A stretch of DNA of 64,000 nucleotides from Candidatus Kapaibacterium sp. (GTDB lineage: Bacteria > Bacteroidota > Ignavibacteria > Kapaibacteriales > JAEUSM01). Position 1 is the first letter of the stretch, and each line of letters begins with the position of its first letter. Positions 54,001-63,000 of this stretch are shown here, piece after piece. The stretch lies in the NCBI GenBank assembly GCA_016788785.1, contig JAEUSM010000006.1, forward strand, positions 473,864 to 537,863. The letters are read 5' to 3'. The position numbers are program-made.

Positions 54001-57000
54001 CCACCGTTCATTTTGTCTTGAAGTCGTTCTTCCAAATTTGCCGACACTTGCCCAATGAACAGAGGCTGTTACGTTATCATTGATGCTATTAGTTAATGCA
54101 GCAATTCCACCACCTCTGGAATGACCAAGAAGAAAGAGTTTTTTATTCCATGGAATGTCCATTTTTTTGATTTGGTCATTTATCAACCAGTTAATAATAG
54201 TTTCAGTTTCAAATAGTTCACGAGACAACGTATTGTTTGCAAATTTATCTACGTCAAATTCATCTCCAATATCATCAGTTACACCATTTAATGAAAAATT
54301 GATAGTAAAAGTAGCATATCCTAAATTACTAAAATGTTTGGAAACAAATGGGAAGAATCCCCAATTTTTAAACCCTTTAAATCCATGAAGGATAAGCAAA
54401 ATTGGAATTTCTTTGTGAAAATTTGGAGCGTAATAATCTACGCTAATTTTCTCATTATCAGGCAATTTTAAGTTTAAAAGTATTGGATTCATTGTTATTC
54501 GAGACAAATTCCTGTTAATTATGAAGAAAAAATAGTATATTATGGATAATTAGCATATTTATAGTACTAACAAGAACACATAACGAACAAAGGTTCATTT
54601 ACATATAAATGGAAGAAAAACTCTATTCAATCATTGAAAGATATAAAAAACTCGTCGATCAAATGAACGACCCAGACATTTCAAATGACTATAAACTGTA
54701 CAGAGATGTTTCGAGAGAAGTCAAACAATTAACACCTCTTGCAACAACTTCGGAACGATATTTGTCTGTTGTAAAAAGCATTGAAAATAACAAAGAATTA
54801 CTCACAGACTCTTCATTAGATTCTGAGTTGAAATCATTGCTTTATGATGACATCAATGATTTGGAAAAACAAAAAGAAACATTAAATGAAGAATTGAAAA
54901 TACTATTGATTCCACGAGATCCTAACGATGTTAAAAACTGTATCGTCGAAATAAGAGCAGGAACTGGTGGCGATGAAGCCGGTATTTTTTGTGGTGATTT
55001 ATATGAAATGTACAAACGTTTTGCCGAAATAAAAGGTTGGACCTTAGAGATTATTGATTTTGCTGAAAGCGAAAAAGGTGGTTTCAAGGAAATTTCTTTT
55101 TCGTTATCAGGAGAAGATATCTATGGTACGTTAAAATTTGAAAGCGGTGCTCATAGAGTTCAGCGAGTTCCAGATACTGAAGCCTCAGGTCGAACACATA
55201 CTTCAGCTGCTACAGTTGCTGTATTACCAGAAGCTGAAGAAGTTGATGTTGAAATCAACGATGGTGATATTCGTATGGATATTTATCGTGCAGGTGGGAA
55301 GGGTGGACAAAACGTCAATAAAGTAGAAACTGCGGTGCGGTTGGTTCATATTCCAACGGGAATTGTTGTTCAATGTCAAGAAGAACGATCGCAATTGAAG
55401 AACAAAAATAAGGCTATGAAGGTACTTTTAGCCAGAATTTATGAGTTAGAATTAGAAAAACAACAATCTGAGATAGCTTCGGCACGAAAATCGATGGTAA
55501 AAAGTGGAGACCGTTCAGAAAAGATTAGAACCTATAATTATCCTCAAAATCGTGTTACGGATCATCGACTGGAAGGCGATGCGAAAAACTATCCTTTGCG
55601 TGAGATAATGAATGGTGAACTGAGCGGTTTAATCGATCAATTGCACATTGCTGAGCAAGCACAATTAATGCAAGAAGGAATATCGTAAATGGCTGAATAT
55701 TCGCCAATAATACAACAAACAGAACAATTTGTTCGTGAACTCTTTTCTACTCAATTAAGCGAAGAGTTTAAATTTCATACACTGGGGCATACAATGGAAA
55801 TTGTCAACAGCTGTAGAAATATTGGCGTTGCTATAGGTATCTCTGAAAATGACATGGAAATGCTTCTTATCGCTGCTTGGTTTCATGATGTAGGATATAC
55901 CAAAACCTATGTTGGTCATGAAGAAATCAGTTGTCAAATGGTTGAAGAATTTTTACAGACTATTTCTTATTCTCAAGAAAAAATTGATATTATTAAAAAT
56001 ATCATTATGGCAACAAAAATGCCACAGAATCCTAATACTACTTTGGAAAAAATCATTGCAGATGCTGATTTGTATAATTTAGGTAGTAAGGAATTTTTTG
56101 TGAGGAATGAAGAAATTCGAGAAGAATTGTTTTTACGGTTAGGAAGAACGTTTACTGATGAAGAATGGGCAAAAAGTAATCTTGCCTTATTAGAAAAGCA
56201 ACAATTTTGGATTCCGTATGTAGAAAACTTAGTTCGTTCCCAATTGAATGAGAATATAGAACAAATTAAAAAATCTTTAGATAGTTAAACTGTACATTTT
56301 ACGTTTCTCTATGAAATATTTATACATACTTCGACATGCAAAAACCTCATGGGATAGTGTAACTGATTTTACACGGCAATTAGATCCCACAGGGAAAACT
56401 CAAGCAAAACAATTAGGAAAATTCCTCAAACAAAAAGGAATTCAATTTGATGCTCTTCATACCAGTTCAGCGACTCGTGCTTCACAAACAGCAACTATCA
56501 TTTGCGAAGATGTTGATTTTAAACTATCTTCAATTGAGGAGACTGTCGGACTTTACGAAGCAAAGGTCATTGATTTGCTCCAATATGTTCAAGCATTATC
56601 TAATCAGCAAACACACGTTCTAGTTGTTGGTCATAATAATACAGTTTCTAATTTTTGTAACTATATTTTGACTGAACCAATTGGCGAACTACCGACATGT
56701 GGTTTGGTTGCTATCCGTTTTTCAATTTCTTCTTGGTCTGAGGTTGATAAACAAATTGGCGAATTACTCTTCTATAAAAAACCTGATGACCTATAGAAGT
56801 CAATAACACCACTGAACATGATCCCGCAAACATCCCATTTTCGTGTTGATTACAACCAAAGCGTTAAAGATTTTTTAACTCAATGTGATGTTTATATTGA
56901 ACGTAAAGAAATCAGCAAAGCTCTCAGCATACTTTCACGACTTTCGTTATTTCAATTTCAAAACAATCAAATACAAAGTGCAATTGACACTTCTAAAAGA

Positions 57001-60000: not shown

Positions 60001-63000
60001 ATTCCTGATGTAGATTTTGAATTACAAGTACGTTTTGGTATTCATTCCGGTGCTGTAATTGGAGGAGTTATTGGTTCCAAACGACCTTCTTTTGATATTT
60101 GGGGGGATTCTGTGAATATTGCATCGCGATTAGAATCTCGTTCGGAGCCTAATAAAATTAATATTTCAGGTTCATTGTACGAACGAGTAAAGGATATGTT
60201 TATGTGTTCTTATAGAGGTAAACATTCTGCAAAAAATATTGGTGATATGGAAATGTATTTTGTTGACAAACTTATAGATTAACGCATTTTAAACCCATGA
60301 CTGCACGTCAACTTTATACAATTGCACTTAAAGAGAATATTCTTTTAAACATTCCTCCAATTTTAAAAGAATGTGAACAAATGTTCTCCTTGTTGGTTCC
60401 GTACGAATCGGAAGAAGAACGTTTTTTTCTCAATGCAAGTTTTGGAGTATTGTATAAAACTCTTTTGGAATATGATAAATCGTATCAATATTTCACTGAA
60501 GCCTCACCTTTTGCAGAAAAATATCTCCAAGGTATTGATATTGTTCCTTTTTATGTTGTTTTTGCAAAAGTTCTCAACAAAAAAGAATTTTTTATTCAAT
60601 CCATTGAAACACTTACTCAAGCAAAAATTGAAAGTCAAAATGAAAATGCCTTGGAATTACTTGCTAATATCTATTTTGAATTAGGTACTAATTATTCTGA
60701 ATGTACTGTTACTACAGTTGCACTTGAACATTTTCACTTATGTTTAGAGATTGCCTCGAAGTTGCAATTAGATTTTCTCATTACATATGTATTACTTTCA
60801 ATTGGTGTTATCAATAAAAATATTGGAGATTTTGAAAGTGCAAAAATTCATCTTCAAAAATCTTTAGATATGGCGATATCCATTGATTCTGAGGAATTTA
60901 TAGCAAAAATTTACTTTGAACTTGGTGATGTTTTCGTCACAATGGGCAAATTTGTAGAGGCTGAGGAGTATTTACACAAATGTATTGAATTTTCTATTTT
61001 GTCGAATCAAAAACGCATCGAATCAAATGCTTACAGGAAGATTGGAGATATTTACTTCCCCAAAAAGAATTATGATTTGGCTATAGAATATTATCAAAAA
61101 TCTTTGACCGTCAGTGCTACAGTTGGCTTTACTTTGAATTTGTTCCTTTCTATGTTAAAAGTGGCAACTGTCAATATTCATCAACAACTATTTACAAAAG
61201 CTCAAACACTTTTAGAAAAAGCAGCAAAGATAATTGAACATTCTAAAAATTATCATTTACATTCCCAACTTCATACAGTTTATACTTTGTTATATCATAC
61301 CCAAAAAAATTGGGAACAATATGAAACATCATTTGCGAAACAACAAGAATATGATGAGCTTAACAGACAATTAGTTCAAAAAAAACAAGAGGAATATAGA
61401 AGCGAAATTCAACGGTTGGACAAAACCATCATCGATGGTTCAACAGTGCTTTTGCGTTTTGAAAAAACAACAACACCTATAGATAAACCTGTCATAAATG
61501 AAAAAGATGATATAAAAGCATTTATGCATTTGTTTGAACACGCTCCATTAGGAATCTGTATAACAACTACATCGAATATTATAGTCGCAACAAATAAAGA
61601 ATTTCAAAGAATTTTTGGGTACAAAAATAATGATTCGAATGGAAGTAACTTTACTAACTTACTGACTACTGAATATTCGATAGAATTTGAAGAACATACA
61701 GCAAAACTCATTGCTAATCCTCAGTTGAAATACAGTATCGAAGAACAATATAGAATTTCTCAAAAAAATCAAATATGGTTACGTAGAACAACATCAATGA
61801 GTTTTATTCCCGATTTTGATCAAGTAGTTTTCATTCATATGCTTGAAAACATTCATGAAAGAAAACGTGCTGAACAAGAATTAGTAGTTACTCTTTCCAA
61901 AATGCATAGAAACACGGATTTATTATTTGAGCATAAAAAACAATTAGAAGCAAAGAATGAGGAATTTAGTATTGTTAATGCAGAATTGGAACGAAAGAAC
62001 GAGCAACTGTTACGACTTCAAATTGCAGAACAAAATATAACTACACAATTACAATCACAATATGTAGAAGCGGTTTCATTACAAAATTCTTTATTACCTA
62101 ACCTATCCTTTTTTCAACAAACTTTTGACCATTCTTTAGTTTTCAACAAAGTTTGTGATAATTTAGGTGCTAAAAAAGATTTTTATTGGGTATTTTCTAA
62201 TCCTTCAATTCAAGCAAAATTTATTGCTGTGGCAGATTGTTCTATTTCTGGATACTCAACTATCTTGCTATCTGTTCTGGGAGTTTCACTTTTGACATCA
62301 ATAGTTTACGAAGACCCAACTATGGTACCATCAGAAATATTGAAAAAGTTTCATTCGTTATTTCAAAAAACTCTCCAATCAAATTTTGAATCGAAACAAT
62401 ATTACTCTTTTGATATTGGGTTGATAAAAATTGAACCAGACAGATGTATATTTTCTGGTGCAAATACTCCATTGTATTTTATAAAAAATTCTGAAGATGA
62501 ACAAGTAACCTCAAGCTTGGAGATAATTGAACCAAATTTCCATTCAATAGGAGGCTTTTCAAATGAAGAAGAATTTATTTTTGAAGATACAGTTATTTAT
62601 CGTGAAGTAGATGTGGTGTATTATCTGACTACAAATGGTTTTTCAAAGCAATATAATGAAGAAATGAATGTTCCATTTCAAAAAAGTATCAAAAACAAAT
62701 TAAATGAGCTTTCACAATTATCATTTAATGAGCAACTTGGACTTTTAGAGCAAGAACATTTGGAATATCTGAAGTTTTCACGATTAGTTGATGACATTTT
62801 ACTCATTGGCTTTTCTGTAAAGGCTGAACACAATGAAAAACTTTCTTTAGAATTATAGAATTTATACTTTTTAATCTTCAACTTCTTTGAATCTGCATAT
62901 TTTGGAATACGAACAACGGGGACAATCTTTTTTGCTTGGTTGAATTGGAAAATTTACTGAAGACATTTCTTCTACATTCATTTCTACTAACGTAACCGTT

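What the first reader, a model, noticed from the sequence alone, without database searches (positions are those of the whole stretch)
55689..62858. Signalling gene cluster: HD hydrolase, SixA-like phosphatase, soluble histidine kinase, TPR adenylate cyclase and TPR-PAS-PP2C-like protein
Five consecutive plus-strand genes with short gaps encode: an HD-domain phosphohydrolase (a possible cNMP or nucleotide-second-messenger hydrolase); a phosphohistidine-phosphatase-type enzyme (SixA dephosphorylates HPt domains); a TM-less histidine kinase with no adjacent response regulator; a class III cyclase whose N-terminus is TPR repeats; and an 853-aa TPR-PAS-coiled-coil protein whose C-terminal PP2C/SpoIIE-like domain has substitutions at the metal-binding Asp positions. 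The arrangement suggests an integrated cAMP / His-Asp / partner-switching circuit that has not been characterised. Together with the ExoY-like enzyme at the window start, the organism encodes two unrelated cyclase classes.
Basis: partly seen in the sequence, partly recalled or inferred. Interest (0 to 1): 0.5.

Follow-up and report, generated by a model that had tools for sequence, protein, structure and literature searches.

The report
Signalling operon with a dead-looking phosphatase
Five tightly packed genes after the release-factor gene prfA encode an HD hydrolase, a SixA-like phosphatase, an orphan histidine kinase, an intact cAMP-making cyclase and a sensor protein whose phosphatase active site has decayed; the cluster is real, but every part is a familiar type and nothing shows they form one circuit.

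Summary
Five + strand ORFs sit at exactly the stated coordinates, with gaps of 22, 21, 12 and 14 nt. The first starts directly after the prfA stop codon, and no + strand terminator lies between them. Domain searches confirm HD, a short SixA-type His_Phos_1, HisKA/HATPase_c, a TPR class III cyclase with all adenylate-cyclase catalytic residues, and TPR-PAS-coiled coil-PP2C.

The PP2C domain belongs to the SiaA subfamily. Its active site is degenerate: GHG is replaced by ISG, the SiaA D600 equivalent is Asn, and the D604 equivalent is Lys. One ortholog has eroded different catalytic positions instead. The domain is still under purifying selection, so it is probably a pseudophosphatase.

The "integrated circuit" reading is not supported:
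- HD plus SixA-like is an old gene pair, adjacent in 17 of 20 Ignavibacteriota loci, without any kinase, cyclase or PP2C nearby.
- The kinase/cyclase/PP2C trio exists only in one narrow uncultured clade, where all flanking DNA is collinear too.
- The next-closest TPR cyclase stands alone.
- No response regulator, HPt, STAS, SiaB or SiaC was found in 74 kb.

Verdict: a clade-specific signalling operon built from known parts; modest interest.

The parts
54609..55688 (+). prfA (peptide chain release factor 1). Probably the first gene of the transcription unit; its stop codon abuts the HD start codon.
   Evidence: PCRF 231 bits and RF-1 148.8 bits. Junction reads TAA|ATG with gap 0. A 101-nt AT-rich region upstream faces a divergent gene.
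55689..56288 (+). Stand-alone HD-domain hydrolase (199 aa) of a family found across FCB-group (Fibrobacterota-Chlorobiota-Bacteroidota) bacteria. Most other members carry a C-terminal PycTM membrane domain. The H30, H34, H66-D67, H77-E78, D125 and D127 positions are all present.
   Evidence: Pfam HD 33.2 bits. Family alignment A1 with its invariant columns. Closest structures are 2pq7 at 9e-10 and YedJ 3gw7 at 2e-7. Homologs of about 420 aa carry PycTM PF18967 at 114-130 bits.
56311..56796 (+). Short SixA-type histidine-phosphatase-superfamily enzyme (161 aa). It has R8-H9, R56 and H108 in the RHA...R...GH pattern.
   Evidence: His_Phos_1 57.5 bits. TIGR00249 sixA 70.9 bits over 151 of 154 profile positions, cut-off 74.5. 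Matches over most of its length (residues 4-113 to 4-122 of 161) to SixA-type structures 1ujb, 2rfl and 3f2i.
56818..58227 (+). Soluble orphan histidine kinase. Residues 1-230 form an all-helical N-terminal domain of unknown family. Residues 231-469 are the DHp/CA core, with the H box IHDLTNP, the N box, G1 (DQGAGI) and G2 (GLGLS).
   Evidence: HATPase_c 50.6 bits and HisKA 24.2 bits. Motifs align to HK853 structures 3dge/4jas. No stretch hydrophobic enough to suggest a transmembrane helix. The N-terminal domain has no detectable relation to the TPR regions. The single-sequence AlphaFold2 model is unusable, pLDDT 43.
58240..60282 (+). TPR class III (IIIa-like) adenylate cyclase. TPR repeats span about residues 56-345, followed by a helical linker. 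The catalytic domain is residues 500-676 (nt 59737-60267).
   Evidence: Guanylate_cyc 173.8 bits and TPR_12 103 bits. Alignment to the C1 and C2 domains of mammalian adenylate cyclases shows both metal Asp residues (FMDIVGFT, IGDSY), the adenine-specifying Lys (IKTIG) and Asp (FDIWG), and the transition-state Asn and Arg (VNIASR) in one chain.
60297..62858 (+). TPR-PAS-coiled coil-degenerate SiaA-type PP2C (853 aa). TPR is about nt 60561-61352, PAS 61515-61883, coiled coil 61887-62096 and the PP2C-like domain 62097-62819. Altered active-site codons are I650-S651 (nt 62244-62249), N780 (62634-62636) and K784 (62646-62648).
   Evidence: Pfam and NCBIfam results. 16,864 relatives by phmmer. Column-by-column comparison with 148 relatives. 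Alignments A3 and the four-ortholog alignment with SiaA. 6K4E hit at 7e-67. SiaA active-site residues taken from PMC7647112. Translations checked. dN/dS of the domain about 0.08.

Best explanation
This is a compact, probably co-transcribed block, prfA-HD-SixA-HK-AC-PP2C, in an uncultured low-GC bacterium of the FCB (Fibrobacterota-Chlorobiota-Bacteroidota) group, with closest affinities to Ignavibacteriota. It is built from two modules with separate evolutionary histories.

Module 1 is an ancient pair of small soluble phosphohydrolases: a YedJ-like HD enzyme and a SixA-type histidine phosphatase. Both keep their catalytic residues. They most likely act together on a small phosphorylated or nucleotide substrate, possibly a cyclic nucleotide. 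They are less likely to act on the neighbouring kinase.

Module 2 is a clade-specific trio of cytoplasmic sensor proteins, each built as helical sensor, then coiled coil, then output:
- A histidine kinase that looks competent but has no local partner.
- A TPR adenylate cyclase with a complete homodimeric active site, which makes cAMP.
- A TPR-PAS protein whose SiaA-type PP2C domain has lost key catalytic positions but is still under purifying selection. It most likely works as a non-catalytic sensor or scaffold (a pseudophosphatase, as in E. coli RssB). It would bind a partner rather than dephosphorylate it.

Shown: gene anatomy, domain identities, catalytic-residue status, the tight spacing, and conservation patterns across relatives.
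Inferred: co-transcription, loss of phosphatase activity, and any functional coupling between the modules.
For: Anatomy and spacing. Domains.

Cyclase catalytic residues are complete. Kinase motifs are complete. HD invariant residues are present.

The PP2C domain is of SiaA type. SiaA active-site residues are D457, D474, G477, D600, G601 and D653, plus D534 and D604 for the third metal (PMC7647112). The window protein has D628, D647, I650 (for G477), S651 (for the His), D706, N780 (for D600), G781, K784 (for D604) and D832.

Among 148 relatives the D600 position is Asp in 100%, the Gly and His of GHG in 99%, and D604 in 93%.

Orthologs L003 and L093 share the window's changes. Ortholog L006 keeps Asp at the 780 position but has Glu for D474, Glu for D534, TTG for GHG and Asn for D604. 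Catalytic positions are therefore free to vary while the fold is kept. dN/dS is about 0.08 for the PP2C domain, against 0.04 for the cyclase catalytic domain.

The HD plus SixA-like pair is adjacent in 17 of 20 Ignavibacteriota loci. It is also adjacent in Chlorobi-group, Calditrichota and one Armatimonadota-labelled MAG. It is adjacent in 0 of 43 loci from named Bacteroidia families or genera. No kinase, cyclase or PP2C lies beside these pairs; the only signalling-domain hit in those loci is a weak cyclase match 6.6 kb away in L063.

The trio is found only in at least four close lineages. The next cyclase homolog falls to 43% identity over the catalytic domain only. The next PP2C homolog falls to 36% or less.

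Precedent for a bacterial PP2C pseudophosphatase: E. coli RssB (PMC6546054).
Against: - Co-transcription is inferred from spacing only. The promoter scan is no better than shuffled sequence (53 sites found against 48.9 expected), and promoters of this bacterial group may not fit the sigma-70 consensus.
- Asn can still bind a divalent metal, so residual or altered phosphatase activity is not excluded.
- dS is near saturation (0.8-2.1), so the dN/dS values are rough.
- Nothing shows that the two modules, or the three sensor proteins, interact.
- The substrates of the HD and SixA-like enzymes are unknown.
- Only 74 kb of the genome was inspected, so partners may be encoded elsewhere.
- Organism placement is indirect. 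It rests on type IX secretion (T9SS) sorting domains, flagellar genes, 34% GC and the HD-SixA adjacency pattern.
Confidence: 0.5

Rival explanations
1. The five genes form one integrated circuit in which cAMP synthesis (cyclase) and breakdown (HD), His-Asp phosphotransfer (kinase, reset by SixA) and PP2C partner switching are wired together.
For: Tight packing on one strand with no terminator hits. The five-gene order is kept in four lineages. The HD family lies near class III cyclases in several other lineages: L092, L059, L017/L022/L047/L073 and L065/L078. The SiaA paradigm links a PP2C to a nucleotide cyclase (PMC7647112).
Against: HD plus SixA-like occurs as a pair without the other three genes in many genomes. 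There is no HPt, response regulator, STAS, SiaB or SiaC in 74 kb. The PP2C active site is degenerate. The four lineages that conserve the order are collinear over all flanking genes, so the order carries no extra information. The nearest other TPR cyclase is solitary.
Confidence: 0.15
2. Plain juxtaposition. These are unrelated signalling and hydrolase genes that sit behind prfA in a gene-dense genome. They share a transcript at most, with no shared function.
For: The two modules have different evolutionary histories. Active TPR-SpoIIE relatives and TPR cyclases elsewhere are usually solitary. The same kind of TPR module is combined with cyclase, SpoIIE, kinase and CHAT outputs in many bacteria. 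A run of three signalling genes is not very improbable genome-wide (my own estimate).
Against: Gaps of 12-22 nt between five genes are typical of operons whose products work together. All products are soluble. HD and cyclase co-localise repeatedly in other lineages.
Confidence: 0.3
3. The PP2C domain is still an active, unusual phosphatase. Asn780 binds the metal, and the enzyme acts on a STAS- or SiaC-type phosphoprotein encoded elsewhere in the genome.
For: Three of the four canonical Asp residues and Gly781 are retained. The domain is under purifying selection. Active relatives also often lack adjacent partners.
Against: Four positions that are 93-100% conserved among 148 relatives are changed at once. 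Ortholog L006 changes a different set, including the D474 and D534 equivalents. That pattern is what relaxed constraint on catalysis would produce. The Pfam SpoIIE score falls below its cut-off, whereas all 16 members of alignment A3, including the window protein and its close ortholog, match SpoIIE at E<=0.01, the best at 3.5e-21.
Confidence: 0.2
4. A Pycsar-like anti-phage cyclic-nucleotide defence system: a cyclase plus an effector related to PycTM fusion proteins.
For: HD homologs are commonly fused to the PycTM effector domain. The cyclase gives weak PycC hits of 45 bits.
Against: The window's HD protein has no PycTM domain and no membrane segment. The cyclase scores 174 bits to the general class III model and has Lys/Asp adenine specificity. 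No other PADLOC hit was found. The block lies among housekeeping genes with host-like composition and is syntenic across species.
Confidence: 0.03

Closest known systems
SiaA of the Pseudomonas aeruginosa SiaABCD pathway (PP2C structure 6K4E)
   Same: The C-terminal domain belongs to the same PP2C subfamily, including the preceding helices. The family profile scores 228.8 bits, E 7e-67. In both cases the gene sits next to a nucleotide cyclase gene.
   Different: No SiaB kinase or SiaC phosphoprotein is present. The neighbouring cyclase is a class III adenylate cyclase, not the GGDEF diguanylate cyclase SiaD. The N-terminus is soluble TPR-PAS. The equivalents of active-site residues G477, D600 and D604, and the GHG His, are replaced.
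E. coli RssB C-terminal domain (PP2C pseudophosphatase and ClpXP adaptor)
   Same: A bacterial PP2C fold that has lost catalytic aspartates and works by binding proteins (PMC6546054). The intact Pseudomonas RssB-like protein 3eq2 is a weak hit of the family profile.
   Different: RssB has a receiver domain and a known client, sigma-S. Here the partner is unknown and the sensor part is TPR-PAS.
Bacillus subtilis RsbP/RsbU partner-switching phosphatases (from my own knowledge)
   Same: RsbP has the same PAS-coiled coil-PP2C layout.
   Different: No RsbV- or RsbW-type STAS protein or kinase, and no sigma factor, lies nearby. The catalytic site is degenerate.
TPR-linked class III adenylate cyclases of Bacteroidota and other FCB-group bacteria (annotated but uncharacterised; e.g. 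P0232, P0233, P0236)
   Same: Same layout of N-terminal TPR_12-type repeats with a C-terminal Guanylate_cyc domain.
   Different: Only 28-43% identical, and those examined are solitary (L090) or sit beside an HD gene (L092), not in a kinase/PP2C cluster.
E. coli SixA (phosphohistidine phosphatase acting on ArcB HPt and NPr)
   Same: Same short, roughly 160-aa form of His_Phos_1, with the catalytic Arg-His and a second His. It nearly reaches the NCBIfam sixA cut-off.
   Different: No HPt domain or PTS-Ntr protein is nearby. Its conserved partner is an HD hydrolase. The substrate is unknown.
YedJ / 2pq7-type HD hydrolases, and HD-PycTM fusion proteins
   Same: These are the best structural relatives by profile. 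The H...HD...HE...D.D residues are conserved.
   Different: The window protein lacks the PycTM membrane domain that most family members carry. The substrates of YedJ-type enzymes are themselves poorly defined.

Membership tests
PP2C / SpoIIE phosphatase (PF07228), SiaA subfamily | Sequence homology of the whole domain | tested here: met
   16,864 phmmer relatives at E<=1e-3. All 16 members of alignment A3 match SpoIIE at E<=0.01. The profile hits SiaA 6K4E at 7e-67. The window protein alone scores 18.8-21.7 bits, below the Pfam cut-off of 25.
PP2C / SpoIIE phosphatase (PF07228), SiaA subfamily | Complete metal-binding and catalytic set (SiaA D457, D474, G477, D600, G601, D653; D534 and D604 for the third metal) | tested here: not met
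   G477 is I650, the GHG His is S651, D600 is N780 and D604 is K784. D628, D647, D706, G781 and D832 are kept.
PP2C / SpoIIE phosphatase (PF07228), SiaA subfamily | Phosphoprotein phosphatase activity | not testable with these tools
   Needs an enzyme assay.
SiaABCD-type or RsbU/V/W-type partner-switching system | Adjacent Ser/Thr kinase (SiaB/RsbW type) and phosphoprotein (SiaC/DUF1987 or STAS) | tested here: not met
   No such Pfam family in any window ORF of 110 aa or more, in the small intergenic ORFs, or in the 10 kb beyond the window.
Class III adenylate cyclase | Guanylate_cyc domain with two metal Asp residues, adenine-specifying Lys and Asp, and transition-state Asn and Arg | tested here: met
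   173.8 bits. All six residues align to the C1/C2 domains of mammalian adenylate cyclases.
Two-component system | Histidine kinase with DHp His and N/G1/G2 ATP-binding motifs | tested here: met
   HATPase_c 50.6 bits. HisKA 24.2 bits, below its cut-off of 26.9. Motifs align to HK853.
Two-component system | Cognate response regulator encoded with the kinase | tested here: not met
   No Response_reg hit in 64 kb plus 10 kb.
SixA phosphohistidine phosphatase (TIGR00249) | Equivalog-level score and catalytic Arg-His...His | tested here: inconclusive
   70.9 bits against a cut-off of 74.5, covering 151 of 154 profile positions. R8-H9 and H108 are present.
SixA phosphohistidine phosphatase (TIGR00249) | An HPt or NPr substrate in the same system | tested here: not met
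   No Hpt or PTS domain in the window. The conserved neighbour is the HD gene.
HD-domain phosphohydrolase superfamily | HD domain with H...HD...D metal ligands | tested here: met
   33.2 bits against a cut-off of 22. Invariant H30, H34, H66, D67, E78, D125 and D127 are present.
   Only 16-19 bit matches to class I phosphodiesterases, covering the H...HD stretch. The best matches are YedJ-type hydrolases. Context gives suggestive but phylogenetically clustered proximity to class III cyclases.
Pycsar defence system | PycC cyclase plus PycTM or PycTIR effector | tested here: not met
   The window HD protein lacks PycTM. PycC scores only 45 bits against 174 bits for the general cyclase model.

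The most novel reading that the evidence does not exclude
Two linked possibilities remain open.

(1) The degenerate SiaA-type PP2C protein could be a phosphorylation-independent regulator. It would sense a signal through its TPR-PAS part and control the neighbouring TPR adenylate cyclase or the orphan kinase by direct binding. 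That would be a cAMP counterpart of the Sia pathway with the enzyme turned into a switch.

(2) The HD family could be a cyclic-nucleotide hydrolase. Its widespread HD-PycTM form, conserved next to a SixA-like phosphatase, would then be a housekeeping, cyclic-nucleotide-linked membrane module related to the effectors of Pycsar phage defence.
Probability: 0.12. Interest if true: 0.6.

Novelty: new variant of a known kind. Interest (0 to 1): 0.3.

Why it matters
If the reading is right, this clade offers a natural bacterial example of a PP2C pseudoenzyme that sits beside an intact adenylate cyclase. It could serve as a small test case for how dead enzymes are reused as sensors or scaffolds. Separately, the conserved HD (often HD-PycTM) plus SixA-like pair recurs across the Ignavibacteriota and allied genomes sampled. 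It hints at an uncharacterised nucleotide-linked module whose membrane domain is shared with phage-defence effectors. Neither point changes current understanding unless experiments confirm it. Every component is a familiar domain type, so the finding is mainly useful for annotation.

Tried and rejected
- The word-indexed homolog search with the PP2C C-terminus found nothing. The exhaustive search was needed instead.
- HD alignment A1 was too diverse to seed a genome scan. A narrower alignment, A2, worked.
- Structure prediction for the kinase's N-terminal domain failed twice. No fold search was run.
- hhalign found no relation between the kinase's N-terminal domain and the TPR regions.
- Rfam gave no hit in the window.
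- PADLOC gave no defence-system hit apart from generic PycC and TPR matches. The defence reading was rejected.
- The cluster-member look-up gave no organism names, so taxonomy stays indirect.
- Literature searches for HD-PycTM fusions found nothing relevant.
- The cyclases near HD genes in other lineages score only 50-82 bits to PycC. That cannot tell Pycsar cyclases from ordinary class III enzymes.
- Horizontal transfer was considered and rejected. GC and GC3 match the host, and the dispersed repeats do not flank the block.

Full report
**Observation.**
- The gaps between them are 22, 21, 12 and 14 nt.
- The first ORF starts on the base after the stop codon of prfA (54609-55688), so the unit probably has six genes.
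- A divergent gene lies 101 nt upstream of prfA. A convergent AddB-like nuclease gene ends 12 nt after the last stop codon.
- The terminator scan finds no + strand site inside the block. The sigma-70 promoter scan is no richer than shuffled sequence, with 53 sites against 48.9 expected.
- Rfam finds nothing.
- GC and GC3 of the six genes match the window.

**Domains**.
- The HD domain passes its Pfam cut-off.
- His_Phos_1 passes its cut-off, and the protein is the short SixA form. NCBIfam sixA scores 70.9 against a cut-off of 74.5. Matches covering most of the protein (residues 4-113 to 4-122 of 161) go to SixA-type structures 1ujb, 2rfl and 3f2i.
- The kinase has HATPase_c and a sub-threshold HisKA. 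The phospho-accepting His and the N, G1 and G2 boxes align to HK853.
- The cyclase scores 173.8 bits. In one chain it carries both metal Asp residues, the adenine-specifying Lys and Asp, and the transition-state Asn and Arg. It should therefore be an active homodimeric adenylate cyclase.
- None of the six proteins has a stretch hydrophobic enough to suggest a membrane segment.
- The kinase's first 230 residues are predicted helical but match no known family. The only structure model I could obtain is too poor to use.

**The PP2C-like domain.** Pfam SpoIIE is below its cut-off for the window protein. An exhaustive phmmer search nevertheless gives 16,864 relatives, and only one cluster is more than 36% identical. 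A profile of these relatives hits the SiaA PP2C crystal structure 6K4E at 7e-67 over its whole length. All 16 aligned members match SpoIIE at E<=0.01.

The SiaA paper lists the active site as D457, D474, G477, D600, G601 and D653, with D534 and D604 supporting a third metal (PMC7647112). I mapped these through the alignments (translations checked):

| SiaA residue | Window protein | Status |
|---|---|---|
| D457 | D628 | kept |
| D474 | D647 | kept |
| C475 | C648 | kept |
| G477 | I650 | changed |
| His of GHG | S651 | changed |
| D534 | D706 | kept |
| D600 | N780 | changed |
| G601 | G781 | kept |
| D604 | K784 | changed |
| D653 | D832 | kept |

Among 148 relatives the four changed positions are 93-100% conserved. 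Orthologs from L003 and L093 share the window's changes. The L006 ortholog instead keeps Asp at the 780 position but has Glu at the D474 and D534 positions, TTG for GHG, and Asn at the D604 position.

Different catalytic positions decaying in different orthologs point to lost catalysis with a retained fold. Consistent with that, dN/dS is about 0.08 for the domain; this is rough because dS is near saturation. E. coli RssB is the bacterial precedent for a PP2C pseudophosphatase (PMC6546054). Residual activity cannot be excluded.

**Surroundings.** Pfam scans covered every window ORF of 110 aa or more and the small intergenic ORFs. The pre-computed annotation covers 10 kb past the window end. Together they show no response regulator, HPt, STAS, SiaB, SiaC, anti-sigma kinase, sigma factor or cNMP-binding protein. 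Active TPR-SpoIIE relatives elsewhere also lack adjacent partners, so this absence is typical rather than informative.

**Relatives.** The window is a metagenome contig. Four species-level lineages carry the same six genes in the same order (window/L001, L093, L003-5, L006-7). Every flanking gene for about 10 kb on either side is also collinear, so the order says little about function.

Beyond this clade the picture splits in two:
- **The HD protein** belongs to a family widespread in the FCB (Fibrobacterota-Chlorobiota-Bacteroidota) group. Most members carry a C-terminal PycTM domain.
- **HD and SixA-like adjacency.** In 17 of 20 Ignavibacteriota loci the HD gene is directly followed by, or divergent from, a SixA-like gene. 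The same holds in Chlorobi-group, Calditrichota and one Armatimonadota-labelled MAG. It holds in none of 43 loci from named Bacteroidia families or genera. No kinase, cyclase or PP2C lies beside any of these pairs.
- **The cyclase** drops from 70-100% identity inside the clade to 43%, over the catalytic domain only. That nearest homolog is solitary.
- **The PP2C protein** has no intermediate relatives at all.

The five-gene cluster is therefore an old hydrolase pair joined to a clade-specific trio of sensor proteins.

**The HD protein.** Its best solved relatives are 2pq7 and YedJ, hydrolases of undefined substrate. Matches to cyclic-nucleotide phosphodiesterases are only generic H...HD hits. 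The family does lie near class III cyclases in several other lineages:
- divergent from a TPR cyclase in L092;
- convergent and adjacent in L059;
- about 2.6 kb away in four Cytophagales loci;
- about 1.5 kb away in two Chitinophagaceae loci.

This is suggestive, but it amounts to only four or five independent events. The cyclases involved cannot be told apart from ordinary class III enzymes.

**Mechanism.** The account I favour is in the Best explanation section. In short: an operon with two modules, an active cAMP-producing TPR cyclase, a competent orphan kinase, an HD plus SixA-like pair acting on a small phosphorylated or nucleotide substrate, and a TPR-PAS pseudophosphatase acting by binding. 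The anatomy and residue status are shown. Co-transcription, loss of phosphatase activity and any coupling are inferred.

The last is essentially excluded.

**Novelty and verdict.** All parts are known domain families in known architectures. The closest named systems are SiaABCD and RsbP/RsbU for the PP2C protein, RssB for the pseudoenzyme idea, E. coli SixA, and YedJ-type HD hydrolases. The cluster fails the membership tests for Sia-type or Rsb-type partner switching, for a complete two-component system, and for Pycsar.

It is best described as a new, clade-restricted variant of ordinary bacterial signalling gene clusters. It has one moderately interesting feature, the conserved degenerate PP2C next to an intact cyclase, and one side lead, the HD(-PycTM) plus SixA-like pair. 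Interest is 0.3.

Noticed in passing
window 342-1463 (+): ExoY/EF/CyaA-type class II nucleotidyl cyclase (373 aa) in an environmental FCB-group bacterium. Anthrax_toxA scores 104.9 bits and ExoY structure 5xnw 1.5e-22. The Lys-rich ATP site, DYDL and HHSD motifs align. Known toxins of this class need a eukaryotic cofactor, so its role here is unclear.
   Followed up: partly
L010-L089 (e.g. L012 9953-11203, L029 9935-11230, L021 9905-11212): Most homologs of the window's HD protein are roughly 420-aa fusions of the HD domain to a C-terminal PycTM domain (PF18967; PADLOC PycTM 57-62 bits), the membrane effector domain of Pycsar phage defence. In Ignavibacteriota and allied lineages they are followed by a SixA-like gene. 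I found no paper describing this.
   Followed up: partly
L092 6820-7419 (-) and 8001-9845 (+); L059 9983-12489; L017/L022/L047/L073 at about 10000-14450; L065/L078 at about 7100-11260: HD-family genes lie next to or near class III cyclase genes in four or five other lineages. One case is another TPR cyclase, divergently transcribed.
   Followed up: partly
window 5572-5845, 10234-10350, 10467-10499, 18448-18543, 27355-27554, 29391-29777: A dispersed family of GC-rich, partly palindromic intergenic repeats (REP- or MITE-like), for example TGAGACGCCCATATAGGGCGTCTCTACGAA and CCCCTCTTGAGGGG. None lies inside the 54.6-62.9 kb block.
   Followed up: no
window 21418-21848: At least three tandem copies of a 120-nt (40-aa) repeat, 85% identical, inside the N-terminal part of the S4/pseudouridine synthase ORF 21202-22842.
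   Followed up: no
window 62859-62870: Only 12 nt separate the stop codon of the PP2C-like gene from the stop codon of the convergent 1155-aa AddB-like PD-(D/E)XK nuclease gene. There is no terminator-like site, so the transcripts probably overlap.
   Followed up: no
L001 17316-19665 (-), 4.5-7 kb beyond the window end: Two adjacent paralogous TPR_12-type proteins (388 and 393 aa) with no output domain, conserved in all four lineages. They could be partners for the TPR sensor proteins, but this was not tested.
   Followed up: no
window 35382-37328 (+) and 40654-46640 (-): A 648-aa leucine-rich-repeat protein (LRR_8 202 bits). Separately, a cluster of a TonB-dependent receptor, an HTTM/vitamin-K-carboxylase-like protein (265 + 188 bits), an imelysin and a DUF4856 protein.
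   Followed up: no
window 51120-52037 (-): A short-form Ppx/GppA phosphatase (305 aa, no HD domain) lies 3.6 kb upstream of the HD/SixA-like pair on the opposite strand, and this is conserved in all four lineages. No link to the pair was established.
   Followed up: no
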